64,000 nucleotides of DNA from Naegleria gruberi (lineage: Eukaryota): assembly GCA_000004985.1 (NCBI GenBank), contig GG738860.1, one strand, 5' to 3'. The position numbers were made by a program, and so were the translations under genes. Numbering within the stretch: the first letter of the stretch is position 1; each line of letters starts with the position of its first letter. This document shows positions 2,669-64,000 of the stretch, in pieces. Below the pieces are notes generated by a model. It was given only the letters and a program-made list of their open reading frames with translations, did not search any database and had not been told where the DNA came from.

Positions 2669-2858
2669 AAGATAAATGAATTGTACAACCAATCTTATCT
2701 ACAATATGTGTATCATATTCTCCATCATAATAATGTTTGTGTTCATCTTTGTATTCCAAGAGGAAATAGGTAGGTATTTTTAGAACACTCAAATAATTTT
2801 AAAAATTCATCTATTAAAAAATTAAGCTCACAACAGCTGCACCAATTATTGTATAAAA

Positions 2859-4547: not shown

Positions 4548-5090
4548 ATGATAACAAACAACGAAGAGGAACAAACACCAACCACGGAAAAAAACAATGA
4601 AAATATTGAATTAGAAGATGATGAACAATTAATTACCAGAGCAACGAGACAACAAACGCAAGAATATTTCCAAAAACATAAAATCTCGCAAATCATAAAA
4701 CAAAAGTTAAATGAAGCTTTCAATTTAAATCATCAGGATCCGGTCGAATATTTATTTAGTACAAAGAGGATCCAACAACAAGATTTAAAATTACAACAAC
4801 AAGAAAAAGAATTAAAGGAATTGACCAAAAAACACGATGAAGAACTCACTGCTCTTCAACAAAGTAAAGAGGCCTCTAGAGAAGCATTGATTGAACAAGA
4901 AAAACAACTTGTCGATCAATTGGAACAATTAAGAAAGGAACGTAAAGATTTGGAAGATAAAATTCAACAAACAGAACAACAAAAGAAGGTTAGAGATGAA
5001 AATAGAAAATATAATATTGAGCTTTTAAAGCAACGAAATGCAGAACTGTCTCAAGAAAATCAAAAATTATCGAAAGAATTATCTGTATAA
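4548..5090 (+). CDS. Small coiled-coil protein (Q/E/K-rich), function unknown
   Basis: 180-aa ATG-initiated ORF. Heptad-like charged sequence (LKLQQQEKELKELTKKHDEELTALQQSKEASREALIEQEKQLVDQLEQLRKERKDLEDK). No recognisable catalytic motif. Confidence 0.45.
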   Translation: MITNNEEEQTPTTEKNNENIELEDDEQLITRATRQQTQEYFQKHKISQIIKQKLNEAFNLNHQDPVEYLFSTKRIQQQDLKLQQQEKELKELTKKHDEELTALQQSKEASREALIEQEKQLVDQLEQLRKERKDLEDKIQQTEQQKKVRDENRKYNIELLKQRNAELSQENQKLSKELSV

Positions 5091-5119
5091 TTACCTAATT
5101 TGTATATTTAAACACTTAT

Positions 5120-6448
5120 TTATTTCTTTTTCTTTTTTTTCTTTGGTGTTTTGGTTTTCTTTTCCTCAGATGCTGAAGCCTTGCTACTTGCCTCAACAAC
5201 TGCCTTGTTTGTTGTTGTTATATCGGTTTTAAAGTTTTCAATTCCTTCACTGTGATTCTCTAAACAATTTGGACAAAACCATTGTTTCTTGCCTTCTTCT
5301 GGCTTTTGTGAATCTGTTAAGCATTTATCAACATGAAATCCACAATCACAATAATCACAAAATACAAGTGTCCCTTCATTTGGTCCCTTTCTACATTTCA
5401 AACAAATTTTACAATCAGAACATAACCAATTATCCTTATGAACTTGTTCCAAATGTTCCAAATTAGGTGTATAACAAAATGTGTGGAAATATGAATTACA
5501 AGACAAACACTGAATGAATTTGGTCTCCTGCTCAAAACTATTACAAATCTTGCAAAGCTTTCTTGTTCTTGGTCTACCACGTTTCTTTGGAATCTGTGAA
5601 AGGTCAGTTTCAGAAAATATCTTAGTAGATGATTGACTTTCTGTTTCAGTCTTTGGTGTTTCAACTACAGATTCAACTGTTGGTGCATCAGATACATCAA
5701 CAGGTGCCGTAACTGTGCTTTCAATACTTGGTATGGTTTCCTCAGTTTGTGGAAATTCGTCTATCAATTGTATAAGAGCATCATTCTCGTCTATCATCTC
5801 TTGTTGTGGCTTATTTGATGAAAGAGAATCGATCACATCCGAATAGGTGTTTGAAATTCCTTCCAATCTATCCCTAGAAATTACTATTGTTGAATTAAGA
5901 GTTGGTTGATTTAGACGATTAAAACCAAACTCGTTAGCATATTCTGGTCTACTTTTACAATACATTTCCAAAATACTCTTAGTGTTATGAATATATCTTT
6001 GTTCTTGTTTCGAATTTTGGAAGAATTTGGTACAGTAACAAATTACTCTAGCTGTGTATGGACAAGCTGTATGGAAGTTAGATTTGTATCCGAAACTAGT
6101 CTTAACATTAGGGAATGATGACATTAGAAAAGGAACTTCCTCCTTTTGTCTCTTCATCAATTGTATTTCTTCCAAAGATAATTGCTTAGATTTTGTTTGA
6201 TCTCCATTATGAACAATCGATGACGAATTATCATTCACATTAGATAGTAAATCTCCATTTATCATCATCAAGTCATCACCATGTGCAATATTGTTATTTC
6301 CTTCCTCCAAAATAATATTTGTTGTTTGAACGGAAGAAGATGTATCAACAACAGATGCAAGAACCTCATCGGCACTCTCATCAATTCCATTCAACAATTC
6401 ATCGACGTCATTTTGATGAGAACGTGGCGGAGTTTCAATTTCACTCAT
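5120..6448 (-). CDS. Tandem PHD zinc-finger protein with lysine-rich C-terminus
   Basis: Minus ORF 5120..6493. Two adjacent C4HC3 PHD fingers (CKICNSF...CLSCNSYFHTFC...WLCSDCKIC; CLKCRKG...FCDYCDCGFHVDKC...WFCPNCL). Start taken at MSEIETPP (6448); an upstream in-frame ATG at 6493 is also possible. Confidence 0.6.
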   Translation of the reverse strand: MSEIETPPRSHQNDVDELLNGIDESADEVLASVVDTSSSVQTTNIILEEGNNNIAHGDDLMMINGDLLSNVNDNSSSIVHNGDQTKSKQLSLEEIQLMKRQKEEVPFLMSSFPNVKTSFGYKSNFHTACPYTARVICYCTKFFQNSKQEQRYIHNTKSILEMYCKSRPEYANEFGFNRLNQPTLNSTIVISRDRLEGISNTYSDVIDSLSSNKPQQEMIDENDALIQLIDEFPQTEETIPSIESTVTAPVDVSDAPTVESVVETPKTETESQSSTKIFSETDLSQIPKKRGRPRTRKLCKICNSFEQETKFIQCLSCNSYFHTFCYTPNLEHLEQVHKDNWLCSDCKICLKCRKGPNEGTLVFCDYCDCGFHVDKCLTDSQKPEEGKKQWFCPNCLENHSEGIENFKTDITTTNKAVVEASSKASASEEKKTKTPKKKKKKK

Positions 6449-23662: not shown

Positions 23663-26600
23663 ATGATGTCAGCAACAAGAAATCATCATGAACCACAAAA
23701 TAATGAACGACAGTCGTCGGAAAGAGTCTACCGTAAAAAGATTTTAGATGCTGTCTTGGAGTATTATTCAGAGGCTTTTTCTATAGAAAAAAGTAACGAG
23801 CAAATTAAAACGGAAATGGACCTTTGTTTACCGAAAAATGTCTGTAAGCGTATTTCATTTAAATTATTGAAAACAGGAGTCCAAAAAAAAGAAACAAATA
23901 TAAATTCCATTAGTGAGAAAGTTTTGAAAATTCCAAAAAAAGAAAAGAAAATTGAAAATCATGAAGAAGTGCTTCTTTCCCAAGCAGACTTGGATGATTT
24001 TAATAAGGAACCAACACAACATGACACTGAGGAGAAAAAAAAACAAATAATGGAGTATACTGAGCAGTATATTCAGAAAAAGTCACAGAGTGTGCTTTCA
24101 CAGATGGATAGTATTACTTTTCCCAAAAAGATTAGAGCAAGACTTGATCAAATTTCTAATGTTATTGCTAAAACCTGTATTCATCTAGAAGAAGAAAATG
24201 TAAAAGTGGAAGAAAAAGGATCAAATGATATTTCCCAAAACACCCCTATCAAAACAAAACAAGTTGATAATTGTCACACTACGGAAAGAAATGTTTCAAC
24301 TCAAAAAATTAATCTATTAAGAAACTTTAAATATTTATCTGTTGATACTCTTCAATATCTCTCAAGTGGTATCGACACTGTAGAAATGACTCACCAAATT
24401 CCAATAACAATGGCTATATTAGAATATGCTATGCAAAACACTGAAAAATTCAAATTTCAAACGTACGTATTCTATTTTTTAAATATTTAGTATTGATTGA
24501 TATTAAAAGTCTAGAGTGTCTTCAGTTAGGTTCTCTATTGATGGACGCATTCACTAAATACGATATCAAAGAGAAAAAAAGAGTATTTGGAGATACTAGT
24601 ATTCGAATAATGACTGAAAAAAAGATTCATCCCTATTTACTATTCATGGAAAGTCAACGAACAGACTGTGACACTGTTTTTAGTCACAAGGATTTTTTGA
24701 AAATTTGTTTAACATGTAGATCTTCGCTCAAATACACCACCTACCAATTATTTAACTCTCAAAACAAAACTATTTATGATAGTACAAAACTATCATGTTT
24801 TGCCTTATTAACATGTCCATCCACAGTGTTTGTTTTGAGAATGGATTGTGAAAATTATAAACCTGAAAATGTAACAAGTATGGTGATGGATAAAGCGTAT
24901 AGGCTTGGATTCTCTTTGAGGTTAATAGCAACTATTGACATGAAAAAAGATCCAGAATCACTACTTTCAGTATTATATACTATTTTTAGTTATGGACATG
25001 ATTTGACATTAACATTTAATGGAGAACCATGTGATAGAATTACTAACACTCCAATAGAAACTAAATTGAGAGCTCAAGAAGCTAATAATTTTACCTTTGA
25101 ACGCTACTATAATATTATTACTGAAGTATTTGAAAGTGATTTTAATGAGATTAGTTTAATTATTAAAGTACTTATTCAGAATCAATATGATAAAACGTAC
25201 CAATATGATTCGACTTTTAACGGGCCTAAATATGAGAAAACTGATTGGAAACAAAATTTCAATACCTTTCTTGAACAACATTCAGAATCAACAATTTATA
25301 TTTTATCAAACACCAATTCAACACCAACTCTTGAATTGCAAAGAAAAGGGAATGAAAAAATAATAGTTTTTTTTAAAACCAAACGAGTCTATGATTATTA
25401 TGATGATGATGAAGAAACTGAAATGAATGATAATGTAGAAAATAATGATGAATTGAATGAATATGATGAACTTGGCGATATATTGCATGCCACATGCTAT
25501 ACAAAACCTTTAAAAAAGAGAAAAAACCTAAAATCCCAATCGTTACAAGATTCAAAAAAATCTAAATCTAACACTGATACTGATATGTTTTTACAAAGAC
25601 CAGCTGGTAGCAATGTTTCTAACACAGGAGAGTTTTGCTTTGATAAAAATAATTCCACAAATGAAACAAAAGATTTGAAATTAGACAAATTATTAATGTT
25701 TGATATGACCAGTGAATATGAACAATTATTATATGAATTATTTAATATTAATATAATTAATAAGTATTATAGAATAAGAAGAGATTTAAATCCAAAAGAA
25801 GGAGTATTTTTATATTTGGATGGAATTTACAATAATAAGGAAGTATTTATTAAAATTACATGTTATAAAACAATTAATGAAAATATTGAATTAATGAACA
25901 AACTTAAAAATATAAAATCTAAATATTTAAATGAAATAATAGATTTTAAATTAATTAAATTATCCAATGAGCAATTATGTAAATTATTTAAATTAACAAA
26001 TATGGAAATTAAATATTTAGGATTAAAAAATGAAATTTTTATTTCAATTTTATCACCAACAATTGTGTGGTATGATTACTTTGTTTCAAATTATTGTAAA
26101 ATTTATCCATTAAAAGATTATAAATTAATTTTATTATTAATTATTAAATTATTTATTGATAATTTAAATGGATTAAAATTATTACATGAATTAAATATTT
26201 CACATATTGATTTTAACATTTTAAATTCTAATATAATATTAAATAATGGTTCTGATTTAATTAGTAAATATTTAAAAGAAAATAATTTACCAACATTTAA
26301 TATGGTATTAATTGATTTTAATAGTTCAAAATTAGAAAGTCAATTATTATTTACAAATGAATACATTCCAAAAACAACACATTATCCTCCTGATTATAAA
26401 TTATATTATGATAATATAAAACCAAATATATCATTTACAAAAGCACATGATATTTATTCATTATCTATTGTAATGATTCAATATATTACCATTTTGATTA
26501 ATTGTTATGGGAACAATTGCTTTCAAATGAAATCAAATACTATTAGATATATAAATCAATCACATAGAAACAAAGACGAACCATTCAATATTGATTTTAA

Positions 26601-26832
26601 TATTTTAAATTTTAATATTTTAAATAGTTTTGAAAAGGAAATTTTTAATGAATTATTTGAAATGATAAGAGAAATGAATTTAAACCCTTGGAAAATTATT
26701 AATGAAAAAGATTATTGTTTACAACAATTAGAAAAATTACAAAATAATGTATTGCATTGGAATATTTCTGATACTTCTTCATCACCTACAATTAATAGTG
26801 AAATGAAAAATTCACATCAAATGAAACAATGA
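23663..26832 (+). CDS. Large N/K/I-rich protein with a degenerate protein-kinase-like (pseudokinase) C-terminal region
   Basis: ORFs 23663..24490 and 24493..26832 are joined by a 47-nt intron (24463..24509; donor AC|GTACGT phase 2, acceptor AAAAG). An alternative junction 24467..24516 is also possible. Kinase-like remnants: LKLLHELNISHIDFNILNSNIIL (compare HRDLKPENILL), VLIDFNSSK (compare DFG), DIYSLSIVMIQYI (subdomain IX). No intact HRD/DFG, hence pseudokinase. Confidence 0.45.
25690..26700. repeat. Hyper-AT (>85% A+T) low-complexity coding stretch with short direct repeats (TTTTAATATTTTAAAT x2; NIDFNILNFNILNS)
   Basis: Visible shift in composition relative to flanks. Still one continuous reading frame of the pseudokinase-like gene. 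Confidence 0.5.
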
Positions 26833-26919
26833 TATTGTCAAATGATTCTTTTTCCTCAAATTTAATAGTCTCCCAATATAATCACTTTTGGCAAATTGTA
26901 TTCCTAAATATCATTGTCA

Positions 26920-26969
26920 NNNNNNNNNNNNNNNNNNNNNNNNNNNNNNNNNNNNNNNNNNNNNNNNNN
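26920..26969. other. Assembly gap (50 N)
   Basis: Run of 50 n characters. Scaffold-join placeholder, not biological sequence. Sits 87 nt after the stop of the pseudokinase-like gene and 35 nt before the stop of the minus-strand F-box gene. Confidence 0.95.
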
Positions 26970-27004
26970 ATTTTTTTTGAAGAAACTCATATTCATGAAG
27001 AGTA

Positions 27005-27541
27005 TCAATCCTCCCTAAGCAACTCAATTATTCTTTTCGTTTCCTCCAATTTCATATCAAAACTCCTCAATGAATCTTCATGCAATTCCTTCTCTCCAAA
27101 CAAGTGAGTCAATTTATGCTGATACGAAACTCTAATATCTGTATTTGTACTCTTTTGTAAACATTCAACAGTCCACTCAATTGAATCAGTCAATTCTCTT
27201 ATAATACTCGATTGTTTTTCAACTTGTGCATAATATTTCATTTCACGACAGAAGAGATTGTCTAAATAATTAATTTTTTCATCAATTAAATTCCCAATTA
27301 GTGGACGAATCGAATCTTGATAGAAATTTTCTCCAAAGTCTAATTGTTCAATTTTTACATGACAATGGGATGGATCGATATGTTTCCTATATAATTGAAG
27401 AATTTGTTTCCAATAGAATGGATCTGTTGTGATACGATTGTAAGTTGATTTGTTGATCAATAAAATGTTTCGAATATGTTTTAATGAGAGAAAGGAAAAT
27501 ATTTCGGTTTGTAATTCTGTTGGTAAATCCAATAGAGACAT
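27005..27541 (-). CDS. F-box domain protein
   Basis: Canonical F-box immediately after the start: MSLLDLPTELQTEIFSFLSLKHIRNILLINKSTYNRIT (LP.E(I/L)...IF..L....L). Start at ATG 27541; ORF open to 27574. Confidence 0.55.
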   Translation of the reverse strand: MSLLDLPTELQTEIFSFLSLKHIRNILLINKSTYNRITTDPFYWKQILQLYRKHIDPSHCHVKIEQLDFGENFYQDSIRPLIGNLIDEKINYLDNLFCREMKYYAQVEKQSSIIRELTDSIEWTVECLQKSTNTDIRVSYQHKLTHLFGEKELHEDSLRSFDMKLEETKRIIELLRED

Positions 27542-27651
27542 TTTTCTGTTATTATAATTCGAGTGACATCGCAATCACCACCTTTTGATTATTCGATTTA
27601 GTATCGATCAATTTCTAATAATTCCCACACAACTCGATAAAGAAATTCCAC

Positions 27652-27906
27652 ATGAAATTATCACAAATTGGATGTTCTACATGGACAAACAAACTCTTTT
27701 CAATTTCATTAGAAGTTTACAATATTTTTGATGAAATTTATGCAGAGGAAAGATTGAGATTGGAAATTTTAACCCTACGAAGGAATGGTCAGATCTCGAT
27801 GAATCAAATGGAGGACCTCTATCCATTGATATTGAGAAATGTGGATTACAATTTTGTTGATTTGTGTAAATCAATTGGATTGTTTCCTTTTAGATGGAGA
27901 TACTAA
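27652..27906 (+). CDS. Orphan small ORF (84 aa), no recognisable family
   Basis: ATG-initiated ORF in an otherwise unassigned 1.5-kb interval. Low confidence that it is expressed. Confidence 0.2.
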   Translation: MKLSQIGCSTWTNKLFSISLEVYNIFDEIYAEERLRLEILTLRRNGQISMNQMEDLYPLILRNVDYNFVDLCKSIGLFPFRWRY

Positions 27907-28100
27907 AAGCAAGGCCCTATTCACTTCTGAATTCAGAAATTAGAAAATTCTGAAAGAAAGGGTGGTTCTGAAATGTTAGAAAAGTTAATTTCATTAGATG
28001 GTTACACATTCTTAGATAGACCTTCTGAACTTTCAAAAACCTGCCATAATCTTGTCAAAAACAAGTATTCATACTCTCTCCTAGTTCAAAATTTAATATT

Positions 28101-30885: not shown

Positions 30886-30966
30886 GCGGTCTTGACCGAG
30901 TGGTTAAGGTGATTGACTAGAAATCAATTGGGGCGACCCGCACAGGTTCGAATCCTGTAGACCGCG
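30886..30966 (+). tRNA. tRNA-Ser (anticodon AGA)
   Basis: Hand-folded cloverleaf. Acceptor GCGGTCT/AGACCGC (7 bp), U8; D-arm ACC-GAGTGGTTAA-GGT (3-bp stem, Ser-type); anticodon stem ATTGA/TCAAT with loop CTAGAAA (anticodon AGA); 13-nt variable arm TGGGGCGACCCGC; T-arm ACAGG-TTCGAAT-CCTGT; discriminator G. Internal Pol III A-box (AGTGGTTAAGG) and B-box (GGTTCGAATCC) present. Followed by T5-T6. Confidence 0.85.
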
Positions 30967-31344: not shown

Positions 31345-33734
31345 ATGTCATCTCAATCGGTCGTGATGAAGAAGAAAACCTGGGGTGGGTTTGCTATTGT
31401 TGCTATTATGGCTATCATAATGGCAAGTATGCTTGCTCTTATTGAGGGTAGAAAGGAAGTTATAGGACACACTGGTAAAGGTCAAGTTAAATTTGATGGA
31501 CCTGTTGTCGGTATCGATCTTGGTACTACATACAGTGTTGTTGCCATCTATAAGAATGGTGCTGTTGAAGTTATTCCAAACGATCAAGGTAACAGAATTA
31601 CTCCTAGTGTTGTTTCATTTGTAAGTATTAATCTATCGATTGGATATTAACAACAGTGCAATGTGTGATGGAATGTTGTTGTTGTTGTTTGTTGCTACTA
31701 CTACTCTGTACTTGATTATAATCAATGATACAAAAAATCAACATTGATTTTTTAACACAAATCATGTTATTAATAATCATCGACAATGATTTAATGACAA
31801 TTTGATGGATGAACTAATTATTATTATTATAATATAGGATTTGTCAAATAATAATCAAAAACTTGTTGGTGACTCTGCCAAGAACAATGCCGTCTCTAAT
31901 CCAAAGAATACTTTCTACGATGTCAAGAGATTGATTGGTCGTAGATATAATGAAGTTTTGAATAAGGATGCCAAGCTCTTGTCATATGATTTGGTTAACA
32001 AGGAAGGTCGTGTTTATATCAATGTTCAAAATAAGACCACTTCTCCAGAAGAATTGAGTGCTCAAGTTTTGGTCAAGATGAAGCAAATTGCTGAAAAGTA
32101 TTTGGGTGAACCTGTTAAACATGCTGTCATTACTGTTCCTGCTTATTTCAACGATCAACAACGTCAATCTACAAAGGATGCTGGTCGTATTGCTGGTCTT
32201 AACGTTATTCGTATTGTCAACGAACCAACTGCTGCTGCCATGGCCTATGGTTTGTACAAGAAGGATAAGGAAGAAAATATCTTGGTTTTCGATTTGGGTG
32301 GTGGTACTTTTGATGTTTCTTTGTTGACTGTAAGTAGTTTATATATTATCGGAATGTGTGAAATTTTTTCAGATTGACCGTGGTGTTTTTGAAGTTATTG
32401 CTACTAATGGTGATACTCACTTGGGTGGTGAAGATTTCGATGCTAGAACTATTGATTTGTTGATTTCTCTCTTCACTAAGAAGCATCCAGAAATCAAGGC
32501 TGACAGATTGTACAAGGATTTGAGAGCTTATCAAAGATTGAAGCGTTCTGCTGAAGATGCTAAGAGATCTCTTTCAGCTGACACTAGTGTTAAGGTTGAA
32601 ATTGATAATTTGATTGATGGTATTGACTTGTCTCTCACTTTGTCTAGAACTCAATTCGAAAATGCCAACAAGGACTTGTTCAAGAAGACTTTGCTCCCTG
32701 TCCAACGTGTATTGAAGGATGCTAATTTGGAAAAGAGTGATATTGATGAAGTTGTTTTGGTTGGTGGTTCTACTAGAATTCCATTCATTAGACAACAATT
32801 GTCTGAATTCTTCGATGGTAAGGAACTCCATGTTGATGTCAACCCTGATGAAGCTATTGCCTATGGTGCTGCTGTTCAAGCTGCTGTTTTGGCTGGTACT
32901 ATGGATGATAAGGATATTATCTTGATTGACGTTACTCCATTGAGTTTGGGTATTGAAACTGTTGGTGGTGTTATGGCTACTATTATTCCAAGAAATACTC
33001 CAATTCCAACTGAAAAGTCTGATATTTTCACTACTACTGGTGATTACCAAACCAAATTGGCTATTCCAATTTATGAAGGTGAAAGACGTATTACTAAGTT
33101 CAACAGATTGCTCGGTGAATTGCAATTGACTGAAATTCCACCAGCTCCAAAGGGTGTTCCACAAATTAAGGTTGTCTTCCAATTGGATCAAAATGGTATT
33201 CTTAAGGTTATTGCTGAAGATCAAGCCACTAAGAATAGAAAGGAAATTGAAATTAAGAAGGGTAGCTTGTCTGATGAAGAAATTGAAAAGATGACCAATG
33301 ATGCTGAATCCAATGAACAAGATGATCGTGACTTCATGGAAAAGATTGAAGCTAGAAATAAGCTTGAAAGCTACATTGCTACTTTGAAGCAACAATTGGG
33401 TACTAAGAATATTGTCAATCGTTTGAAGTCTCAAGATAAGAATGCCATTTTGGATAAGCTTCGTTTGGTTCTCCGTTGGATGAAGGCCAATGAAGATAAG
33501 CCAACTGTTAAGAAGGAACACTTCATTGCTCAATACAAGAAATTGAGAAGCACTGCTGGTCCAATTTTGGCCAAGCTTTATGGTGGTGCTGACAGTTTGA
33601 CTGATGAAGAAATTTTGGGTGACGATTTCGAGGATGATTTCGGTGAAGATTCTACTTTGGCTGAAGATGAATTTGGTTTGAAGAATGAAGACGATGATAA
33701 GCCAATTAGTGATTCTCCAAAGGACGAATTGTAA
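31345..33734 (+). CDS. HSPA5: ER-lumenal Hsp70 (BiP/GRP78-like) with C-terminal KDEL
   Basis: Three exons join(31345..31620,31838..32329,32373..33734); introns 217 nt (GTAAGT...AATATAG) and 43 nt (GTAAGT...TTTCAG), both phase 0. Hsp70 signatures: [124 protein letters not shown]-terminal hydrophobic segment ([23 protein letters not shown]). Acidic C-terminal tail ending PKDEL. Confidence 0.85.
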
Positions 33735-41943: not shown

Positions 41944-43917
41944 TTATTGTTTATTAATTAAATGTCCTCTCTTTTCCATATATCTATTATAGACATCAAG
42001 GAATATTTCTCTGCATTCAATTGCAACATCCAATTTGTTACACAACAAAAAGGCACCAGATAACTTTCTGTGGAGAGAATAAGTTACTGGAGGTGGAGCT
42101 GTTAATCTTTGTTTTAACATGGTTGGAATGATTTTAGTAACTCTTTCTGGAATAGCCTTACTTCTGAAATCATAAATGCCTTCACATGCAAATGGTTCAC
42201 CAATATGCATGGCAGCTGTTGCATGAGCTTCATTCATTTCCTTGGATTCTTGTCCAGTGAGGAAACCCATCTTTCTTGAAGCATCAATTACTGTCTCAAA
42301 ATCTTTAGTGGCACTTGCATGGACAACACGCAAGTATTGGTCAACAAATTCTTGAGGGAATTCCAAACATGCTCCAAAATCTAACAAGTGCAAAGTGTCA
42401 GTCTTTGGATCATAGAAAAAGTTAGCCCAGTTTGGATCCGTTTGCATAAATCTGAATTCAAACAATTCCTTTAAACATAATTTGAGAATCAATTTAGCGA
42501 CTCTATTTCTGACTTCAATTGGATATTCTTCCTTGATTTGTTCGATTGTTTTACCATACTTAATTAATTCTGTACACAAAACTCTTCTTGTAGTGAATTC
42601 ATCAAAAACTTCAGGTACACTATATGAAGTCATTGGAACATCAGTTACATAACCTCTATTCTTTTCAGCGATAGCATCATCTTGAATTAATTTTCTAAAC
42701 ATCTTTTGAGATTTAGCTTCACGAACATAGTCACATTCTTGTGTCAACTCTTTTCTAGCTTGTTCCATGGTTTGTCCCAAGAATGCACCACGAGGAACGA
42801 GATTTGTATATTTGATAATTCTTTCTACATTTCTAATATCACTTTCAATAGAGTCAGCAACTCCAGGATATTGAACCTTGATTGCAACTTCTTTACCATT
42901 TGCAAGAACACCCTTGTGAACTTGACCTATCGAGGCAGCTGCAATTGGTTTAGTATCAAAATGTTTGAATCCACTCTTCCATGCTTCTCCAAATTCTGCA
43001 GACATGGCTTGCTCCAATTGCCAGGTTGGCATGACATTAGCAGAGTGTCTGACCTTTTCCAAAGCCTTTTGAATGACTGGAGGAACAGTTGACTCATCTT
43101 GAATGGACATAATTTGACCAATCTTTAAGGCAGCTCCTCTCATTTTACAGAGAGTATCGGCAAGAATCTCTGCATTCTTTTCTGTTAAAACATCAGTCAC
43201 AGAAATGTTCTTTTTTTCAGAATCAGATGTTTGAGAGGTTTCAGTTGCTTCAGGTTTCTTTGAAAAGTATTGTTCCTTAGCAGTATTGACTCCCAGTTTG
43301 ATACCCAAAGCAGCAAATTGAATAGCTCTAGAAACTGAATTACTTGGAACCTTGTTTTCCTTTAAAAATGAATTGGTATGTCTCAAATGAATTTCATCAC
43401 TTTCTGTGTGTTCGGTTTCTGGCTTTTTTTCTTGTGTTGATTTAATTTCAGAGATATCCTTTTGACCATGAATAAGAGAATCGTACATCATACCATCAAA
43501 TGATTCATCTTTCTTGGATTCAATTTTTTGGGTGACAATTTTTGGTGTCTCCGATTTAACTTCTTGTGAACTAGTTGTTGTTGCACTTGTAGTAGTAGTA
43601 TTATTGGTATTCATTGAATTATTTCCATAACTATCAAAGAAAATTTGAACATTATTTTGATTGCTATCATCTTGATCTTGATTAATCCTAATAACATTTT
43701 CTCCATCAATTTTTTCAATTGTAGAAACAGTCTTATCTAGTACAACATTTGGACTATTTTGAATAGTTTTAATATTATAGGCAAATTGTTGAATAGGTGA
43801 TTGTGGATAGTAAGTACAAGCAGAGGTAGCCTTTCGGAGGTGAGCGGAACTCTTCTTTGTGGAGGCTAACACTACCATCCCAACACCTTGAGCAACACGG
43901 AGAAAATCATCAAGCAT
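41944..43917 (-). CDS. COQ8: COQ8/ADCK3-type atypical kinase (ABC1/UbiB family), coenzyme Q biosynthesis
   Basis: Single 657-aa ORF, collinear with human COQ8A through the whole kinase-like domain: AASIGQVHKGVLANGKEVAIKVQYPGVADSIESDI..., ELFEFRFMQTDPNWANFFYDPKTDTLHLLDFGA, YSLHRKLSGAFLLCNKL. Confidence 0.85.
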   Translation of the reverse strand: MLDDFLRVAQGVGMVVLASTKKSSAHLRKATSACTYYPQSPIQQFAYNIKTIQNSPNVVLDKTVSTIEKIDGENVIRINQDQDDSNQNNVQIFFDSYGNNSMNTNNTTTTSATTTSSQEVKSETPKIVTQKIESKKDESFDGMMYDSLIHGQKDISEIKSTQEKKPETEHTESDEIHLRHTNSFLKENKVPSNSVSRAIQFAALGIKLGVNTAKEQYFSKKPEATETSQTSDSEKKNISVTDVLTEKNAEILADTLCKMRGAALKIGQIMSIQDESTVPPVIQKALEKVRHSANVMPTWQLEQAMSAEFGEAWKSGFKHFDTKPIAAASIGQVHKGVLANGKEVAIKVQYPGVADSIESDIRNVERIIKYTNLVPRGAFLGQTMEQARKELTQECDYVREAKSQKMFRKLIQDDAIAEKNRGYVTDVPMTSYSVPEVFDEFTTRRVLCTELIKYGKTIEQIKEEYPIEVRNRVAKLILKLCLKELFEFRFMQTDPNWANFFYDPKTDTLHLLDFGACLEFPQEFVDQYLRVVHASATKDFETVIDASRKMGFLTGQESKEMNEAHATAAMHIGEPFACEGIYDFRSKAIPERVTKIIPTMLKQRLTAPPPVTYSLHRKLSGAFLLCNKLDVAIECREIFLDVYNRYMEKRGHLINKQ

Positions 43918-58112: not shown

Positions 58113-59698
58113 TCAACACTGATTGTTTGGTCTTGTTTCTTCAAAGAATTTCTCTCCAAAAACTTGGGTGAGACTTGGGAGCTTATTTTGCAATTGTATT
58201 TGTCCGTGTGATTTGGATTTTACAAACATAGGTCTCGAAATTGATGAATAAGGTGTTGGTGGTTGCTGTTGTGGAACTGGCATATGCATCTCTTGTTGTT
58301 GAGGAGAACTTGATAAACTTGAACTAACTAAGGATTGTACTGTTGACACACTTAGAACTTGCTCCTTCTTCTTTTGTATACCCTTAGCTGTTTGCTGAGC
58401 AACAGCGGTAAGTGATGAAGCCTTTTTTAGGGGTGGCCTAGAAAAAGAACTAGTTGTTCTTCTTAACATTCCACTACCTGAATTGTTGGAATCATTATCC
58501 AAATCAATAGCTGACATGTTTGCGACCAAATCACTCAAACTACTACTGCTGCTGCACGTGCTTAATGTACCAGTTTGGAAGTGATTACTCTCCGTATTCG
58601 TACAATTTGAAAATGTTATGGAGCTGTTGCTGTTTGCTTTAAGTAATTGAGGTCTTCTTAAGGAGGATAATGCTGGTTGAGGAGAAGATTGAAAACTTGT
58701 ATGTTGTTGTGTTGGTTGTTGTTGAATAGGTTGAGGAGTTGAGGAATAAACATCTCCCATACATACATCGGCTGATTCGCTCAATACTTGCTGGTTTGTT
58801 TGAGGAAGTTGAATCTGAGTGTTAATGTGAGACGATGAGCTCATGTTGTTAAAACCAGAGTTGTTCGGGTTGATGTTCATCGTATTTGTGTTGTTAAGAG
58901 GATTCATTTGGTTTGGTTGGTTCATAGAGGATTGCATTCCCCATGAGAATGAATTGCCTGTTGGATGATTATGGTGCTGTGGGTGGTGTTGAGAATTGAT
59001 CATTGAGGTATCCATGTTTGAATAATTATTGCTGATATTGTTGCTAGAAACATTCATAGAGAAGGATGGTTGTGTAGCAACTGAATGATTTTGAGTATAA
59101 TTATTAAGTGAAATATGATGATTCATGTTGTTTGTCCAAGTACTTTGATGAGTATTATTACTATTATGGGAGGATCCCATCATTAATTGGGATGATTGGT
59201 TAGTGAATAAATTATTGTTGGTTGGTATTACATTGTTATTTGTTTGATACATGTTTGCATAATTTGTTTGTCCAATGGTGTTATTATTATTGTTAGGACC
59301 ATTGAAGTTTGTGGAATTATTTGGAATATTGGAAGAGGATTGTTGTTGAGGAGTTCCAAAGTCACTATCATTAAAGTTATTGAAAACAAACTCCTTATTG
59401 TCTCTGATAAATTCTGAAACCTTTTCCTTATATTCATCTTCATTCATTTCAACATTACTGTCATTGGCTCCTTTTTGTATTATTGACTTGATTCTTCTAT
59501 AAGGCCATCTATTGATTCCGTATTGACGACAGAACTTCTTTAGGAGAGTTTGGCATATTCCTTCATTAAGGTTAAATAAGATTATGATGAAAGGAATGTT
59601 TAATAATTACCCATGTCGTCTGCAGCTCTTTGTAGAGGAAGATGAAATCGCTCTGATATCTCTTCGTAAGTTGGTTTCTTCTTTGGTGTTGGTGGCAT
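58113..59698 (-). CDS. RWP-RK domain transcription factor with long N/Q/S-rich (prion-like) C-terminal region
   Basis: complement(join(58113..59560,59611..59698)); 50-nt intron GTAATT...AATGAAG, phase 1. Domain FHLPLQRAADDMGICQTLLKKFCRQYGINRWPYRRIKS has the invariant RWPxRK signature and the preceding helix, as in plant NLP/RKD and Dictyostelium proteins. The remaining 430 aa are N/Q/S/T low complexity. Confidence 0.72.
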
Positions 59699-59797
59699 GC
59701 TTTTTTTTTCTAGTTGGTTAAGGTTTTGAACAGAGTTTTAGACTTTTGATACGGTAAAGATCTTTATTGTATATTATCAAATGTGATATATAAGATA

Positions 59798-61625
59798 TTA
59801 ATCCGATTTCAGCTTTTTGGTCTCGCTTGGTTCAGCATCTTCTAATTTTCTCTTCTTATCAGAGGATTCAGCAAGTGCTGATGTATCAACATTTGGTAAA
59901 ATAACTCCTTCTTCGTTTCCATCTACATTAGTGGTAAGTCTCCTCTTATTTTTAAGGAGAATGGTATGCATTTCTGCATCGTGATGTTCTTCGTGTGAAC
60001 AATTTTCCCCGTGTACATGGACGTGTGGGTCTTCTTCTTCATCTAACTCGATAGGATCTTCAAAATTCTTCCAACTCTCTTCCAAAGCCATTTCTTCATC
60101 TGTTAATAAACAAGAGTCCAACTTGGCCGAGATTTCCTTCTCAGAAATATCCATACCAATGAAAACTAGTTCTTGTCTTCTATCTCCCCACTTTTCATCC
60201 CAAACTTTTGCTAAACTATTATCATCTTTTGGCCAATCTTCCTTCGGTATACTAGCCCAGAATCTACCACCAGTTTCAATTCTTAGTGTGTCACCAGCTT
60301 GTGACCAAAGTCCATATATATCCATCTTAGTACAAAGCCAGAAGAATCCTTTACTTCTCAAAACACCATCAAGAGCTTCTTCATCTATTATTTGTTAATT
60401 TCGAATTTTGAAAGAATGATTATTACTTACTATGAATGAATTGATCTGAAAGACGTTTTGGATGGAAAGGTCTTCTTCTTCTATATGCAAAACTTGTAAT
60501 ACCGTATTGTACACTCTCTGGGACGTGATTACCTTGAAGTTCTTGCAACCATCCAGCAGATTGTTGAGCTTCATTGAAGTCGAATATGTTTGTATAGAAA
60601 ATGCAATCAAGAGGAACTTTTCCGAATTTTGTTTTGATAAGTTTTGCTTTAGGATTCAAGTGACGAATAGTTTGTTCCAACAATCCTAATTCATCGGATG
60701 TAACAAGATCTATTTTGTTCAAAATGATAACATTAGCAAATTCAATTTGATCCACCAACAAATCTACAACTTGTCTGTCATCATCCTCGTCATTTTGTAA
60801 GTTTTTATCTTTCAATGTCTTTCCACTTGTATAATCTAACAACCAGTTATAAGAATCAACAACAGTTACCATTGTATCCAAACGAGCAAGGTTTTTGAGG
60901 GTAACATTTTTCACTGGAGCGACTGATTCTGTTGTTGTTCCATTATTTTCCTCTTTTGATTTATGTGCTTGGTTCAGGAAGTCATCAACAGAAAACGTAA
61001 AAGTTTCAGCAACTGGGAGAGGTTCACTGATTCCACTATTCCGAAATATATCATCAACAAATTGTTATTAGACACTTACCTTGATTCAATTAATAGGTAA
61101 TCAAATTTCTTGTCGTTAGCCAATTTGGCAATTTCTTGTAACTAAAAATTTTAGTTTTTGAAACAATTATTGTCGTACTTACTAAATCATCTCTCAAGGT
61201 GCAACAAATACAACCATTAGCCATTTCTATTAATTTTTGTTCCTTTTTCTCATTCTTTTTGTTGTGATTTGTTAATCATCAACTTGTCGTTACAAAAAAC
61301 CTACCTTCAAGTGATTGATATGAACGAGCTTTGCATCAATGTTAATTTCACTCATGTCATTGACAATAACGGCTACTTTATATCCTTCTTGATTATTTAA
61401 AACATATTTCAACAATGTTGTTTTACCTGCTCCCAAAAATCCGGAAAGAACTGTAACAGGTAGTCTTTGATCATCACTAGCCACACCTTTTCTAGTAGGA
61501 AAAAGGCTTCCAACTATACTATTAATATTTGTTGAAGTACTTGATGATATTTGGCTATCCGCTGCGCCAGTGTTTGCATCAGCTGAACAAACGGTTGCCG
61601 ACGCATCAACAGTGGAGTTGCTCAT
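59798..61625 (-). CDS. ZNG1: CobW-domain GTPase (CBWD/ZNG1-like zinc metallochaperone), five exons
   Basis: Exons (minus): 61305..61625, 61183..61242, 61080..61141, 60427/60431..61035, 59798..about 60356. Introns 62, 41, 44 and about 69 nt. [11 protein letters not shown] (P-loop), [24 protein letters not shown] (CxCC metal motif), [27 protein letters not shown]-terminal CobW_C domain [30 protein letters not shown] plus His-rich segment [20 protein letters not shown]. The last donor/acceptor pair is ambiguous: GTAAGT vs GTAATA donor, three possible AG acceptors. Confidence 0.78.
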
Positions 61626-62247
61626 TTTTTTTAATGTTTAAAAAAGGTAAAAAACAAAAACTGCGTTTCAATAGCTCCAAAATTCAATCCAGCACAACCT
61701 AGGTATTGTGTGAATCTGTAATCTCCTCTCAATCTTCTATTTAACATTAAGGGTGAACTATTTCTGTTCAGCACGTTTTCTGGTTAACCACATGTTAAGA
61801 AATATTTAGAGGAAAGTTGTGCGGATGTTTTGAAATGATCTCAATTTATGTTATCTCCTCTAACCTTTTCACTTGTGGTGTTATAGATCAAACAGGTTCA
61901 TAATTGTTCTTTGAAGCAGAAGTATCGAAAGAGTTTCATTGGATTTAATGTTGTTGGTTCATCACGCATAAATCAAATCGTCAGACGACACCTCTTTGCT
62001 TCTTTTATCCAAGAGCTTTATCCATTCCTAATATGAAACATTGATAACAAACCACAAGCGGGACCTAAATTTTCTTACTCATTCTCAATCTATGTTGGAA
62101 TGTACAATTGTTGTAAGTGGTTCAAAGAGTTCCTTAACAACAACCTATTTAAAACACATTTTGCCACTATTTTTACAGCAAAGAAAGTTCATTTCAGATT
62201 TTATTTTTAATATTTTTATTTTAAAATTAAAAAATTAGCAAAACACC

Positions 62248-64000
62248 ATGTCCAGCAGTGCTAATCAACCTTTCGTAATTGATCCATCAACAATTGTTGT
62301 ATCCGATAACGAAACTGATTTGGATGAAACAATTAAATCCGAGGTTTTGTTGTGGTATCAATCATTTAAATCATTAAAGAATGCTACTCGACAAATGATC
62401 GAAAGAAGTCACTTGAATCCTCTTCTTAAAGTACCTAGAAAGGAGTTATTAAATGTGATGGTTAACTTGAATTTATTGGAATTAAATACTCAAGAAAAGA
62501 TCATAATGTTTGATTTGAATGATTCAATCTTTTCAGTTATTTATCCCGAAACTTATAAGCCAATGGAAGGAGAAGGCCTTTTAGTTACTAGTGATGATCC
62601 TGTTCTTGAAAAGGTTGTTGCAAAGGCTAATAGATTTATTCAAAGAGATAGTGTCAGTATGACATCACCATCCATTGCAATTTCTGTACTTTTATCAAAG
62701 ATTATTGAAATTTTCATCACCAAATCATTTAATGAGCTTACTCCTGGTGTTGTAAATGCCACTGATGATTTATTTGCTTCAAAACTTGATGAATTGGACA
62801 AAGGAGCCTCTAAACTTCTTATTAGCTCCGATGATGAAGATGATGATGAGGATGATGATGAAGACTTTATTCAAACTCCAACACCTCAAAAGGTGAATAT
62901 TTCCGAAAAGAATATATTTGATGTACAAGAGGAAAAGGATATGTCAGAGCTTATTGCAAAGCTTCAAAAAATGTCACAAGATGAAGAATTTACAATGTTT
63001 ACAAATGCATGGGGTAAGTTTCCTTTGAATTCTTAAGCTTATCTTTTTTAGGATCTTTGGCTGGCTATGTAGAATATAACTTGTCAGCAAAGAGTAAACT
63101 GTTGACTGAATTGAAATTTATTAATTCATTGAATGGAAGAAATGGATGGAAAGTGGAATTAGTAGACGAAAATATTTTTGTTTGGACTGTGCATTTGTAT
63201 AATTTCCCAACTTCATCAACAATTGCATCTGGATTACGTTCTTTCCAAGAAAAGTTCAACATTGGTAATGGAGACATTGTGTTGGAAGTTCGTTTTGCTA
63301 ATTATCCTGAAGAGCCTCCACACATTAGAGTTGTATCACCAAGAATTCAATATTTGACAGGTTTAGTACAATTTGATGGAAGTCTTTGTGTTGATTTCTT
63401 AACAAGAAATAATTGGGCTGAAAACAGATGCTTATCTATGGAATCAATCTTTTCTAAAATCAAATCATCGCTCATTGAAAATGATGCCTGCATTGATTTG
63501 AGAACATTCAAACCTTATGATGTCAAGGCCGCTCTTAATAGCTATGTCAGACATACAAGAGATCAAGTCATTCAATCAGGAACCAAGTTCAACGAAAAGT
63601 ATTACATTTTCTCATCTGCTTTCAGTAAGCGTTGTTTTGATGTCAAGGTTAATCTTAGTGCTCTTGGTAAGTTTATCGTAGCAAGTAGAATTTATAGTTA
63701 ACATTTTCAGAAAAGGGTAATAAGGTGTTGTTGCCACCTGAAGCAGCTGATAAGATTTTCAACGATCCTAATGTTGAATTCCCTCTTATTTTTGAAATTC
63801 AAACCAAACATTCTAGAGTATATTGTGGTGTCAGTGGTATGTTGTTTCATAATTTTATATTTCTCTAATTTCAATTTTTTAGAATTTACCAGTCCTTCCA
63901 ATAATATTGTTGTTCCAGAATGGTAAGTAAGATGATTAATTTCATTCAATTAACCTGTATCAGGATGTTTAAGAGTTTGTTTATCACAGAAGGAGCTAAA
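62248..64000 (+). CDS. Fusion gene: UBE2Q-like ubiquitin-conjugating (UBC) domain protein spliced in frame to UFD1 (Cdc48/p97 cofactor) N-domain; partial, continues beyond window end
   Basis: join(62248..63013,63052..63666,63711..63836,63883..63922,63964..>64000); introns 38, 44, 46 and 41 nt (GTAAGT/GTATGT donors). Exon 2 encodes a UBC fold close to UBE2Q: FANYPEEPPHIRVVSPRIQYLTGLVQFDGSLCVDFLTRNNWAENRCLSMESIFSKIKSSL vs human [53 protein letters not shown]. End of exon 2 plus exons 3-5 are collinear with UFD1: SKRCFDVKVNLSAL|EKGNKVLLPPEAADKIF...PLIFEIQTKHSRVYCGVSG|EFTSPSNNIVVPEWMFKSLFITEGAK vs human YRCFSVSMLAG...EKGGKIIMPPSALDQL...PMLFKLTNKNSDRMTHCGVLEF...YLPHWMMQNLLLEEGG. The UFD1 part has no ATG of its own. 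Confidence 0.65.

What the first reader, a model, noticed from the sequence alone, without database searches (positions are those of the whole stretch)
62248..64000. UBE2Q-like E2 domain and UFD1 encoded as one in-frame spliced gene
The exon 63052..63666 encodes a clear UBC fold of the UBE2Q type, with the active-site cysteine context GSLCVDFL. The same exon runs directly into sequence collinear with the extreme N-terminus of UFD1 (RCFDVKVNLSAL vs human RCFSVSMLAG). A 44-nt GTAAGT...TTTTCAG intron then joins it in frame to EKGNKVLLPPEAADKIF (human EKGGKIIMPPSALDQL) and onward through the UFD1 double-psi barrel (VVPEWMF vs YLPHWMM). The UFD1-homologous part has no ATG of its own. An E2 physically fused to the ubiquitin-recognition cofactor of Cdc48/p97 is an architecture I do not recall from model organisms. 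It would couple ubiquitin conjugation and segregase recruitment in one polypeptide.
Basis: partly seen in the sequence, partly recalled or inferred. Interest (0 to 1): 0.75.

Follow-up and report, generated by a model that had tools for sequence, protein, structure and literature searches.

The report
E2-like/UFD1/UBX fusion gene in Naegleria
The gene is real: this amoeba (Naegleria gruberi) makes one 771-residue protein that joins a ubiquitin-conjugating-enzyme-like domain to the ubiquitin-binding part of UFD1 and a Cdc48/p97-docking UBX domain, and the same uncharacterised architecture occurs in many other protists.

Summary
Five exons with canonical GT..AG introns of 38-46 nt (62248..64000, running off the window) encode a continuous protein. 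Residues 256-440 are a UBE2Q-type UBC fold with Cys368. Residues 449 onward are the UFD1 N-domain. A 99.6 %-identical metagenome contig supplies the rest of the gene: 771 aa, ending in UFD1_N2, a coiled coil and a UBX domain.

The fusion does not depend on my splice calls. In N. lovaniensis, Willaertia and two metagenomic relatives the UBC-to-UFD1 junction lies inside one uninterrupted exon. That junction is also the most conserved stretch of the protein.

The architecture is not unique. About 55 distinct cluster representatives carry UBC followed by UFD1, from Heterolobosea, Euglenozoa, a malawimonad, a stramenopile and a dinoflagellate, several of them from transcriptomes.

The UFD1 part is a paralogue, not canonical UFD1. 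It lacks SHP motifs and groups apart from stand-alone UFD1s.

The catalytic Cys is kept in only 30 of 63 members. It is lost in Willaertia, Acrasis and Percolomonas, so E2 activity is plausible here but unproven.

Best reading: a Cdc48/p97 adaptor with a built-in E2 or E2-like module. I found no paper describing it.

The parts
61626..62247 (.). Intergenic region shared with the divergently transcribed CobW/COG0523-type GTPase gene, whose first exon is 61290..61625 on the - strand. It presumably holds the promoter and 5' UTR.
   Evidence: ORF list. The same divergent cobW neighbour is present in L001 and in N. lovaniensis L005. A 4-nt indel against L007 lies at 62165.
62248..63013 (+). Exon 1. 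It encodes the start codon, a conserved N-terminal domain (aa 1-175, 62248..62772) of unassigned fold, and an acidic linker (aa 176-255).
   Evidence: The N-terminal domain is 67-77 % identical in Naegleria and Willaertia orthologues. It has no Pfam, PDB or hhalign match.
63014..63051 (+). Intron 1, 38 nt, GTAAGT..TTTTAG, phase 1.
   Evidence: The flanking residues (NAW|G) are contiguous within one exon in N. lovaniensis and L001.
63052..63666 (+). Exon 2. It encodes the UBE2Q-type UBC domain (aa 256-440, to about 63605), a short linker, and the first 12 residues of the Pfam UFD1_N1 match (from aa 449, 63630).
   Evidence: phmmer to UBE2Q1 E=1.6e-13 and Pfam UFD1_N1 starting at aa 449. Foldseek TM 0.87-0.90 to UBE2Q1 and UBE2Q2.
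63387..63389 (+). TGT codon of Cys368, which aligns with the catalytic Cys351 of UBE2Q1.
   Evidence: Alignment. Cys is kept in 30 of 63 family members. The Willaertia orthologue has GCT (Ala).
63667..63710 (+). Intron 2, 44 nt, GTAAGT..TTTTCAG, phase 1, with an in-frame TAA at 63699..63701. Among the loci compared it is present only in N. gruberi.
   Evidence: It is absent at this position in L001, L004, L005 and L006.
63711..63836 (+). Exon 3, UFD1_N1 (EKGNKVLLPPEAADKIF...CGVS).
   Evidence: Two synonymous SNPs against L007 lie at 63727 and 63739.
63837..63882 (+). Intron 3, 46 nt, GTATGT..TTTTAG, phase 1, splitting a Glu codon (G|AA).
   Evidence: N. lovaniensis has an intron at the same position and phase.
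63883..63922 (+). Exon 4, UFD1_N1 (EFTSPSNNIVVPEW).
63923..63963 (+). Intron 4, 41 nt, GTAAGT..TATCAG.
63964..64000 (+). Start of exon 5 (MFKSLFITEGAK...). The gene continues about 730 nt beyond the window through the rest of UFD1_N1, UFD1_N2, a coiled coil and a UBX domain, to a stop codon.
   Evidence: L007 is 99.6 % identical over window 62059..64000 and 100 % identical at protein level over the 528 shared residues. Pfam on the 771-aa product gives UFD1_N1 8e-19, UFD1_N2 4e-17 and UBX 1e-6, all above their cut-offs.

Best explanation
This is the Naegleria gruberi member of a conserved protist protein family. Its architecture is: N-terminal domain, UBE2Q-type UBC domain, UFD1-type UT3 domain (N1+N2), coiled coil, UBX domain (771 aa).

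Shown here:
- It is one gene and one reading frame.
- All four domain assignments hold.
- The family is widespread.
- The UFD1 part belongs to a lineage separate from stand-alone UFD1 and has no SHP motif.

Inferred from what the domains do in characterised proteins:
- The UBX domain docks the protein on the N-domain of the Cdc48/p97 hexamer.
- The UT3 domain binds ubiquitin on a client protein. The protein would then act as a ubiquitin-receptor adaptor like the UBA-UBX proteins, independently of Npl4.
- The UBC domain is rigidly packed against UT3.

Most likely, but unproven: in N. gruberi, which keeps Cys368, the UBC domain is still charged by E1 and adds or extends ubiquitin on the client held at the segregase. 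In lineages that lost the Cys it serves only as a ubiquitin-binding or structural module.
For: One gene:
- The spliced frame is open across four GT..AG introns.
- The junction lies inside one exon or ORF in L001 (ORF 2208-4082), L004 (6487-7995), N. lovaniensis (exon 4890-5705) and Willaertia.
- The junction (aa 441-470) is 90-93 % identical among the Naegleria group, the highest of any segment.
- 4 of 4 SNPs are synonymous.

Domains:
- Sequence and family matches.
- The AF2 model has pLDDT 86.6 and pTM 0.81 over both domains.
- Foldseek hits UFD1 and UBE2Q1/UBE2Q2.

Family:
- 67 of 163 fetched proteins have UBC followed by UFD1.
- Named taxa are listed.
- Pfam on 10 members finds UFD1_N1+N2 in all, UBX in five and UBA in four.

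Adaptor logic:
- UBX scores above Pfam's cut-off.
- UBX-typical motifs are visible directly in the sequence: KIKFPDG and TYPK (TFPK in N. lovaniensis).
- No SHP motif is present, against 1-3 in three of the four canonical UFD1s checked.

E2 activity:
- Cys is retained in every Naegleria sequence, in three other relatives (P0004, P0012, P0013), in Entosiphon and in the large 'PEVW' group that includes the dinoflagellate sequence.
- The UBC domain is 57-65 % identical among Naegleria and Willaertia orthologues, so it is under purifying selection.

Functional precedent: human UBE2QL1 is needed to recruit p97 to damaged lysosomes (PMC6776906).
Against: - No transcript data for N. gruberi itself were available.
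- No biochemical data exist for any member.
- The catalytic Cys is replaced in 32 of 63 members. These include Willaertia (Ala, codon GCT), Acrasis (Arg) and Percolomonas (Glu). The conserved function of the domain therefore cannot require a thioester.
- UBE2Q1's Tyr343 aligns to Leu. The alignment to the UBE2Q1 chain ends 12 residues before its C-terminus, where His409 and Trp414 should lie by residue numbering. There the sequence runs into UFD1 instead (PMC10971424).
- Pfam UQ_con scores just below its cut-off.
- The UBX signature is conservative rather than canonical (Lys for Arg, YPK for FPR).
- Binding to Cdc48 and to ubiquitin is inferred, not tested.
Confidence: 0.65

Rival explanations
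1. Pseudo-E2 reading. The UBC domain is a non-catalytic, UEV-like ubiquitin-binding or scaffolding module in N. gruberi too. The protein would then be purely a ubiquitin receptor and Cdc48 adaptor, and Cys368 would be a relic.
For: - Cys is lost in about half of the family and in the closest non-Naegleria orthologue, Willaertia, while the rest of the domain stays 57 % identical.
- UBE2Q1's Tyr343 aligns to Leu, and the alignment ends before the stretch that would hold His409 and Trp414 (PMC10971424).
- There is no HPN motif (VVSPRIQ, seen directly in the sequence).
- UQ_con scores below Pfam's cut-off.
Against: - Cys is retained in 30 of 63 members spread over distant lineages, far more than a neutral residue would be at about 30 % overall identity.
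- All Naegleria sequences keep it.
- Absence of HPN is normal for active UBE2Q enzymes (PMC10971424).
Confidence: 0.3
2. Two separate genes. An E2 gene ends at TAA 63699..63701, and an independent UFD1 gene starts downstream.
For: - The unspliced frame does stop at 63699..63701.
- No N. gruberi transcript data were available.
Against: - There is no in-frame ATG in the UFD1 part before Met517, which lies inside the N1 barrel.
- The Pfam UFD1_N1 match starts 12 residues before the intron, within exon 2.
- Four related genomes have no intron there and one continuous ORF.
- Transcriptome assemblies of five other protists encode the fused protein.
- The junction is the best-conserved segment.
Confidence: 0.02
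3. This is Naegleria's one and only UFD1: the canonical Cdc48-Ufd1-Npl4 cofactor that happens to have acquired extra domains.
For: The UT3 domain is intact and well conserved.
Against: - It has no SHP motif and no UT6 tail. The tail is replaced by a coiled coil plus UBX.
- In a neighbour-joining tree, 84 of 86 stand-alone UFD1 domains form one pure clade with no fusion protein inside.
- A published BLASTp survey lists N. gruberi among the species with UFD1, NPL4 and CDC48 orthologues (PMC12902296). My search found no N. gruberi protein model for this locus. That orthologue is therefore presumably another gene. This last step is an inference.
Confidence: 0.08

Closest known systems
UFD1 (human UFD1, yeast Ufd1), the Cdc48/p97-Npl4 cofactor
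   Same: It has a UT3 domain made of N1 (double-psi barrel) and N2. Pfam matches both, and Foldseek gives TM 0.84 to 2yuj and 0.75 to 1zc1. The sequence is collinear from the very N-terminus of UFD1.
   Different: It has no UT6 tail and no SHP motif. A coiled coil and UBX take their place. It is preceded by a UBC domain and an N-terminal domain, and it groups apart from stand-alone UFD1s.
UBE2Q1 / UBE2Q2 / UBE2QL1, the non-canonical E2 family
   Same: These are the best sequence and fold matches for the UBC domain. The Cys aligns with Cys351, there is no HPN motif, and there is a long N-terminal extension. UBE2QL1 is functionally tied to p97 recruitment (PMC6776906).
   Different: Tyr343 aligns to Leu. 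The alignment ends before the C-terminal segment that would carry His409 and Trp414, and the sequence there runs into the UFD1 domain (PMC10971424). The N-terminal domain gives no RWD match. Cys is lost in half of the family.
UBA-UBX adaptors of p97 (p47/NSFL1C, FAF1, UBXN7, SAKS1). My description of them rests on my own knowledge.
   Same: The logic is the same: a ubiquitin-binding module plus a C-terminal UBX domain that docks on the p97 N-domain. Some family members also carry a UBA domain (P0024, P0034, P0039).
   Different: The ubiquitin-binding module here is a UFD1-type UT3 domain, and an E2-like domain is attached. I know of no characterised UBX protein with either.
gp78/AMFR, an ERAD E3 that binds both its E2 (Ube2g2, via G2BR) and p97 (via VIM). 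This rests on my own knowledge and is a functional analogue only.
   Same: One polypeptide brings ubiquitin conjugation and the segregase together.
   Different: gp78 recruits a separate E2 non-covalently and is a RING E3. Here the E2-like domain is part of the adaptor, and there is no RING.
UEV proteins (Mms2/Uev1a, TSG101): UBC folds without the catalytic Cys. This rests on my own knowledge.
   Same: The Cys-less members of this family (Willaertia, Acrasis, Percolomonas and about 30 others) are by definition E2 variants.
   Different: The UBC domain here is of the UBE2Q type, and the N. gruberi protein keeps the Cys.

Membership tests
UBE2Q-type ubiquitin-conjugating enzymes | UBC fold, closest to UBE2Q among the E2s | tested here: met
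   phmmer gives UBE2Q1 1.6e-13 and 1zuo 2.9e-13, against 5e-3 for the next E2. Foldseek TM is 0.87-0.90. Pfam UQ_con scores only 23 bits against a 27-bit cut-off.
UBE2Q-type ubiquitin-conjugating enzymes | Catalytic cysteine at the position of UBE2Q1 Cys351 | tested here: met
   Cys368 (63387..63389) aligns with it. However, only 30 of 63 family members keep it.
UBE2Q-type ubiquitin-conjugating enzymes | Tyr343/His409/Trp414 triad required for UBE2Q1 activity (PMC10971424) | tested here: not met
   Tyr343 aligns to Leu. The alignment stops at residue 157 of the 169-residue UBE2Q1 chain, before the stretch that should hold His409 and Trp414 by residue numbering, so no counterpart could be identified.
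UBE2Q-type ubiquitin-conjugating enzymes | N-terminal RWD domain | tested here: inconclusive
   The conserved N-terminal domain (aa 1-175) has no Pfam, PDB-profile or hhalign match. The full-length AF2 model was too poor to judge it (pLDDT 43).
UBE2Q-type ubiquitin-conjugating enzymes | E1-dependent ubiquitin thioester formation | not testable with these tools
   This needs biochemistry.
UFD1 (Cdc48-Npl4 cofactor) | UT3 domain (N1 double-psi barrel plus N2) | tested here: met
   Pfam gives UFD1_N1 8e-19 and UFD1_N2 4e-17, both above cut-off. Foldseek to 2yuj gives E=2e-15, TM 0.84.
UFD1 (Cdc48-Npl4 cofactor) | C-terminal UT6 region with SHP motif(s) that bind p97 | tested here: not met
   There is no F.G.G..h motif in the 771-aa protein, and only 2 of 63 family members have one. 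Three of the four canonical UFD1s checked have 1-3.
UFD1 (Cdc48-Npl4 cofactor) | Npl4-binding motif and heterodimer with Npl4 | not tested
   No motif model was available. The region where it lies in UFD1 is replaced by a coiled coil and UBX.
UFD1 (Cdc48-Npl4 cofactor) | Orthology with stand-alone UFD1 | tested here: not met
   In the NJ tree of 143 UT3 domains, 84 of 86 stand-alone UFD1s form a pure clade that excludes all 57 fusion proteins. The tree is rough and has no bootstrap.
UBX-domain adaptors of Cdc48/p97 | UBX domain | tested here: met
   Pfam UBX E=1e-6, 29.3 bits against a 21-bit cut-off, aa 677-761. This part lies just outside the window and was read from L007.
UBX-domain adaptors of Cdc48/p97 | Arg in strand 1 and the FPR loop that contact the p97 N-domain (my own knowledge) | tested here: inconclusive
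   Only conservative variants are present: KIKFPDG, and TYPK (TFPK in N. lovaniensis), read directly from the sequences.
UBX-domain adaptors of Cdc48/p97 | Physical binding to Cdc48/p97 | not testable with these tools
   This needs a pull-down or a complex model.

The most novel reading that the evidence does not exclude
An ancient paralogue of UFD1, permanently welded to a UBE2Q-type E2 and spread over several eukaryotic supergroups, defines an unrecognised class of Cdc48/p97 adaptor.

In this reading the E2 is charged by E1. It then ubiquitinates or extends chains on the client while UT3 holds the client and UBX delivers it to the segregase. That would be an E3-independent 'mark-and-extract' machine.

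As a Rosetta-stone fusion it would also predict that animal UBE2Q1, UBE2Q2 and UBE2QL1 work in physical contact with p97 cofactors.
Probability: 0.25. Interest if true: 0.75.

Novelty: new variant of a known kind. Interest (0 to 1): 0.55.

Why it matters
Cdc48/p97 adaptors and E2 enzymes are normally separate proteins brought together by E3s or scaffolds. Here they form one chain with a rigid, highly conserved junction. That is strong comparative evidence that UBE2Q-type E2s and the p97 system work together.

The biology of UBE2Q-type E2s is still poorly understood. In animals the only hint of a p97 link is the dependence of p97 recruitment on UBE2QL1 during lysophagy.

The family also offers a natural experiment. 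About half of its members have lost the catalytic Cys. Comparing Cys-containing and Cys-less orthologues, for example N. gruberi against Willaertia, would show which part of the function needs conjugation.

On the practical side, no N. gruberi protein model for this gene turned up in the protein collection searched, so the gene appears to be unannotated there. Orthologues elsewhere are labelled 'hypothetical', 'UBX domain-containing' or, misleadingly, 'ubiquitin fusion degradation protein 1'.

Tried and rejected
1. The two-gene model was rejected for the reasons given under the rival explanations.
2. The first AF2 run (full-length N. lovaniensis protein, 5-sequence alignment) gave pLDDT 43 and was discarded. 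A 20-sequence alignment of the UBC-UT3 core then gave a usable model.
3. I tried to assign the N-terminal domain as RWD. Pfam, a PDB profile search and hhalign against the UBC profile all gave nothing, so the domain is left unassigned.
4. A word-index profile search for more named homologues returned only 12 proteins. The exhaustive profile search was what revealed the family.
5. An afdb50 fold search, meant to get organism names for two-domain matches, could not run because the library is not installed.
6. Exact look-ups of two other window ORFs found nothing.
7. Literature searches found no description of the fusion: Naegleria+Ufd1, UBE2Q+UFD1+fusion, UQ_con+UFD1, UFD1/UBX/ubiquitin-conjugating/domain architecture/protists, Naegleria+Npl4/Cdc48, 'ubiquitin fusion degradation'+Naegleria, and 'UFD1 domain'+'UBC domain'.
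8. I could not locate a stand-alone UFD1 of N. gruberi directly. Only indirect evidence is available (combined).
Full report
**What is in the sequence.**
The + strand from 62248 carries an ATG followed by five exons: 62248..63013, 63052..63666, 63711..63836, 63883..63922 and 63964..64000+. They are separated by introns of 38, 44, 46 and 41 nt, all GT..AG. The spliced frame is open for 528 codons and runs off the window. The in-frame TAA at 63699..63701 inside intron 2 is also there. After the junction there is no in-frame Met before Met517.

**Which organism.**
The window is 32 % G+C. Another ORF of the window (41944..43917, - strand, ABC1/COQ8 kinase) is 100 % identical to a 'predicted protein [Naegleria gruberi]'. 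Its N. lovaniensis and N. fowleri orthologues lie nine or ten locus tags from the fusion orthologues on the same contigs. The window is therefore N. gruberi, with conserved synteny. The divergent cobW-type neighbour upstream is also conserved in N. lovaniensis and in a metagenomic relative.

**Domain identity.**
- Residues 260-420 match UBE2Q1 (2qgx, E=1.6e-13) and 1zuo (E=2.9e-13). By my own knowledge 1zuo is UBE2Q2. These matches are far better than to any other E2 (5e-3).
- Residues 443-527 match UFD1 (2yuj, E=2.9e-10).
- Pfam gives UFD1_N1 at E=9e-17. UQ_con scores just below its cut-off.
- An AlphaFold2 model of the UBC-UT3 core of the N. lovaniensis orthologue, built on a 20-sequence alignment, reached pLDDT 86.6 and pTM 0.81. 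Its two halves superpose on UBE2Q2 and UBE2Q1 (TM 0.87-0.90) and on UFD1 UT3 (TM 0.84 and 0.75).
- I infer from the high pTM for a two-domain chain that the two domains have a fixed mutual orientation.

**The rest of the gene.**
The 262-aa exon-1 ORF was found by exact look-up on an ENA metagenome contig (L007). That contig is 99.6 % identical to window 62059..64000. It encodes the same 528 residues and continues to a stop codon, giving a 771-aa protein. Pfam on that protein finds, all above cut-off:
- UFD1_N1, aa 449-536
- UFD1_N2, aa 539-617
- UBX, aa 677-761

A lysine- and glutamate-rich helical stretch lies between N2 and UBX. The four exonic differences between the window and L007 are all synonymous third-position changes in the predicted frame: two in exon 1 and two in exon 3.

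**Is the fusion real?**
Yes, and the evidence does not depend on my splice calls.
- Orthologues of 765-771 aa with the same architecture are annotated in N. lovaniensis, N. fowleri (XP_044560543.1, 'UBX domain-containing protein') and Willaertia magna.
- In N. lovaniensis the exon 4890-5705 of L005 encodes aa 233-504. That covers the whole UBC domain, the junction and half of N1.
- Willaertia has a single short in-frame intron in the whole gene.
- In metagenome contig L001 (63 % identity, same cobW neighbour) one uninterrupted ORF of 624 codons covers UBC, UT3 and UBX.
- In the more distant L004 one ORF of 502 codons covers UBC and UT3, and UBX follows after a short intron.
- Among the loci compared, intron 2 of the window is therefore present only in N. 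gruberi. Intron 3 is shared in position and phase with N. lovaniensis.
- The junction (aa 441-470) is 90-93 % identical among the Naegleria-group sequences, the best-conserved segment of the protein. UBC is 64-65 % identical, UT3 73-80 % and UBX 54-61 %.

**How widespread is it?**
A profile of the family searched against 1.84 billion cluster representatives gave 115 hits at E<=1e-30. With domain HMMs built locally, 67 of the 163 proteins fetched carry a UBC domain directly followed by the UFD1 domain. That amounts to about 55 distinct 50 %-identity representatives. Named sources:
- Heterolobosea: Acrasis kona and Percolomonas cosmopolitus
- Euglenozoa: Entosiphon sulcatum and Diplonema papillatum
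- Malawimonad: Gefionella okellyi
- Stramenopile: Platysulcus tardus
- Dinoflagellate: Polykrikos kofoidii

Several of these come from transcriptome assemblies, so fused mRNAs exist. The C-terminal accessories vary: UBX, UBA, XAF1/TRAF-type zinc fingers and ankyrin repeats. WWE or EF-hand domains occur at the N-terminus.

**Relation to canonical UFD1.**
In a neighbour-joining tree of 143 UT3 domains, 84 of 86 stand-alone UFD1s form one pure clade that contains none of the 57 fusion proteins. The tree is rough and has no bootstrap. The 771-aa protein has no SHP motif. Only 2 of 63 family members have a match to the pattern, whereas three of the four canonical UFD1s checked have one to three. 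The fused domain is thus a UFD1-like paralogue that has exchanged the SHP/UT6 tail for a UBX domain.

A published survey lists N. gruberi among species with BLASTp orthologues of UFD1, NPL4 and CDC48 (PMC12902296). My search with the window product found no N. gruberi protein model. That UFD1 is therefore presumably a separate, canonical gene. This is an inference and I could not check it directly.

**Is the E2 active?**
- Cys368 aligns with the catalytic Cys351 of UBE2Q1.
- The lack of an HPN motif is normal for the UBE2Q family (PMC10971424).
- Tyr343 of the Tyr343/His409/Trp414 triad, shown to be essential for UBE2Q1, aligns to Leu. The alignment ends 12 residues before the C-terminus of the UBE2Q1 chain, where His409 and Trp414 should lie by residue numbering, and the sequence there runs into UFD1.
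- Across 63 family members the Cys column holds Cys in 30 and sixteen other residue types in 32; one member has a gap there.
- Willaertia has Ala (GCT against TGT, two base changes). Acrasis has Arg and Percolomonas has Glu.

Retention of Cys in many distant lineages argues that the ancestral protein was an enzyme and that many members still are. The repeated losses argue that the shared core function does not need a thioester. For N. gruberi I rate an active E2 as somewhat more likely than not.

**Mechanism proposed.**
Shown: one polypeptide with the UBC, UT3 and UBX domains, a conserved rigid UBC-UT3 junction, and no SHP motif.

Inferred from the characterised functions of these domains:
- UBX docks on the Cdc48/p97 N-domain.
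- UT3 binds ubiquitin on the client.
- The protein acts as an Npl4-independent ubiquitin-receptor adaptor like the UBA-UBX proteins.
- The UBC domain either conjugates or extends ubiquitin on the held client (Cys-containing members) or contributes a further ubiquitin-binding surface (Cys-less members).

The dependence of p97 recruitment on UBE2QL1 in human lysophagy (PMC6776906) is the only functional precedent I found that links this E2 family to p97.

**Novelty.**
The proteins are in public databases under uninformative or misleading names. I found no paper describing the architecture. The searchable library is incomplete, so this is absence of evidence only. I file it as a new variant of a known kind, the UBX-type Cdc48 adaptors. 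It is not categorically new, because each module and the adaptor logic are known.

Noticed in passing
window 62248..64000: The N. gruberi reference annotation seems to have no gene model here. The search with the window product returned orthologues from other species but none from N. gruberi. Another window gene does hit an identical N. gruberi protein.
   Followed up: partly
window 63667..63710: The intron at the exact UBC/UFD1 junction is absent from all four related loci compared and carries an in-frame TAA. Retaining it would yield an E2-only product of about 471 aa. Whether this is used as an alternative isoform is unknown.
   Followed up: partly
L006 5126..5152 (Willaertia magna); family alignment: The catalytic Cys of the UBC domain is replaced in 32 of 63 family members. 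Examples are Willaertia (Ala, GCT), Acrasis (Arg) and Percolomonas (Glu). The rest of the domain stays conserved.
   Followed up: yes
L007 1..3210 (ENA ERZ929261 metagenome contig): An environmental contig is 99.6 % identical to window 62059..64000. It has a 4-nt indel at window 62165 and four synonymous SNPs. An N. gruberi-like amoeba is therefore present in that sample.
   Followed up: yes
window 62248..62772 (aa 1-175): The conserved N-terminal domain (67-77 % identical in Naegleria and Willaertia, and recognisable in Acrasis, P0012 and L004) has no detectable relative in Pfam or PDB and no relationship to the UBC profile. It contains an 'IYPETYKP' motif reminiscent of the RWD YPxxxP motif.
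   Followed up: partly
window 59500..61625, - strand: A CobW/COG0523-type GTPase gene is transcribed divergently from the fusion gene. The pairing is conserved in N. lovaniensis (L005) and in metagenome contig L001.
   Followed up: partly
window 24001..28000: This is the lowest-G+C stretch of the window (24-27 %). It overlaps a 779-codon ORF (24493..26832, + strand) with no Pfam match.
   Followed up: no
window 30886..30966, + strand: tRNA-Ser (anticodon AGA) is the only Rfam or ARAGORN hit in the window.
   Followed up: no
window 32358..33734 (+) and 32574..33533 (-): An HSP70-family ORF (Pfam E=7e-124, matching only profile positions 204-598, so an upstream exon is likely) has a 319-codon antisense ORF. 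The antisense ORF is probably a by-product of codon bias.
   Followed up: no
family members P0015, P0019, P0024, P0025, P0034, P0039: Outside Heterolobosea the UBC-UT3 core is combined with different accessories: XAF1/TRAF-type zinc fingers, a Di19 zinc finger, ankyrin repeats, UBA, WWE and EF-hand domains. This suggests lineage-specific targeting of a common core.
   Followed up: partly
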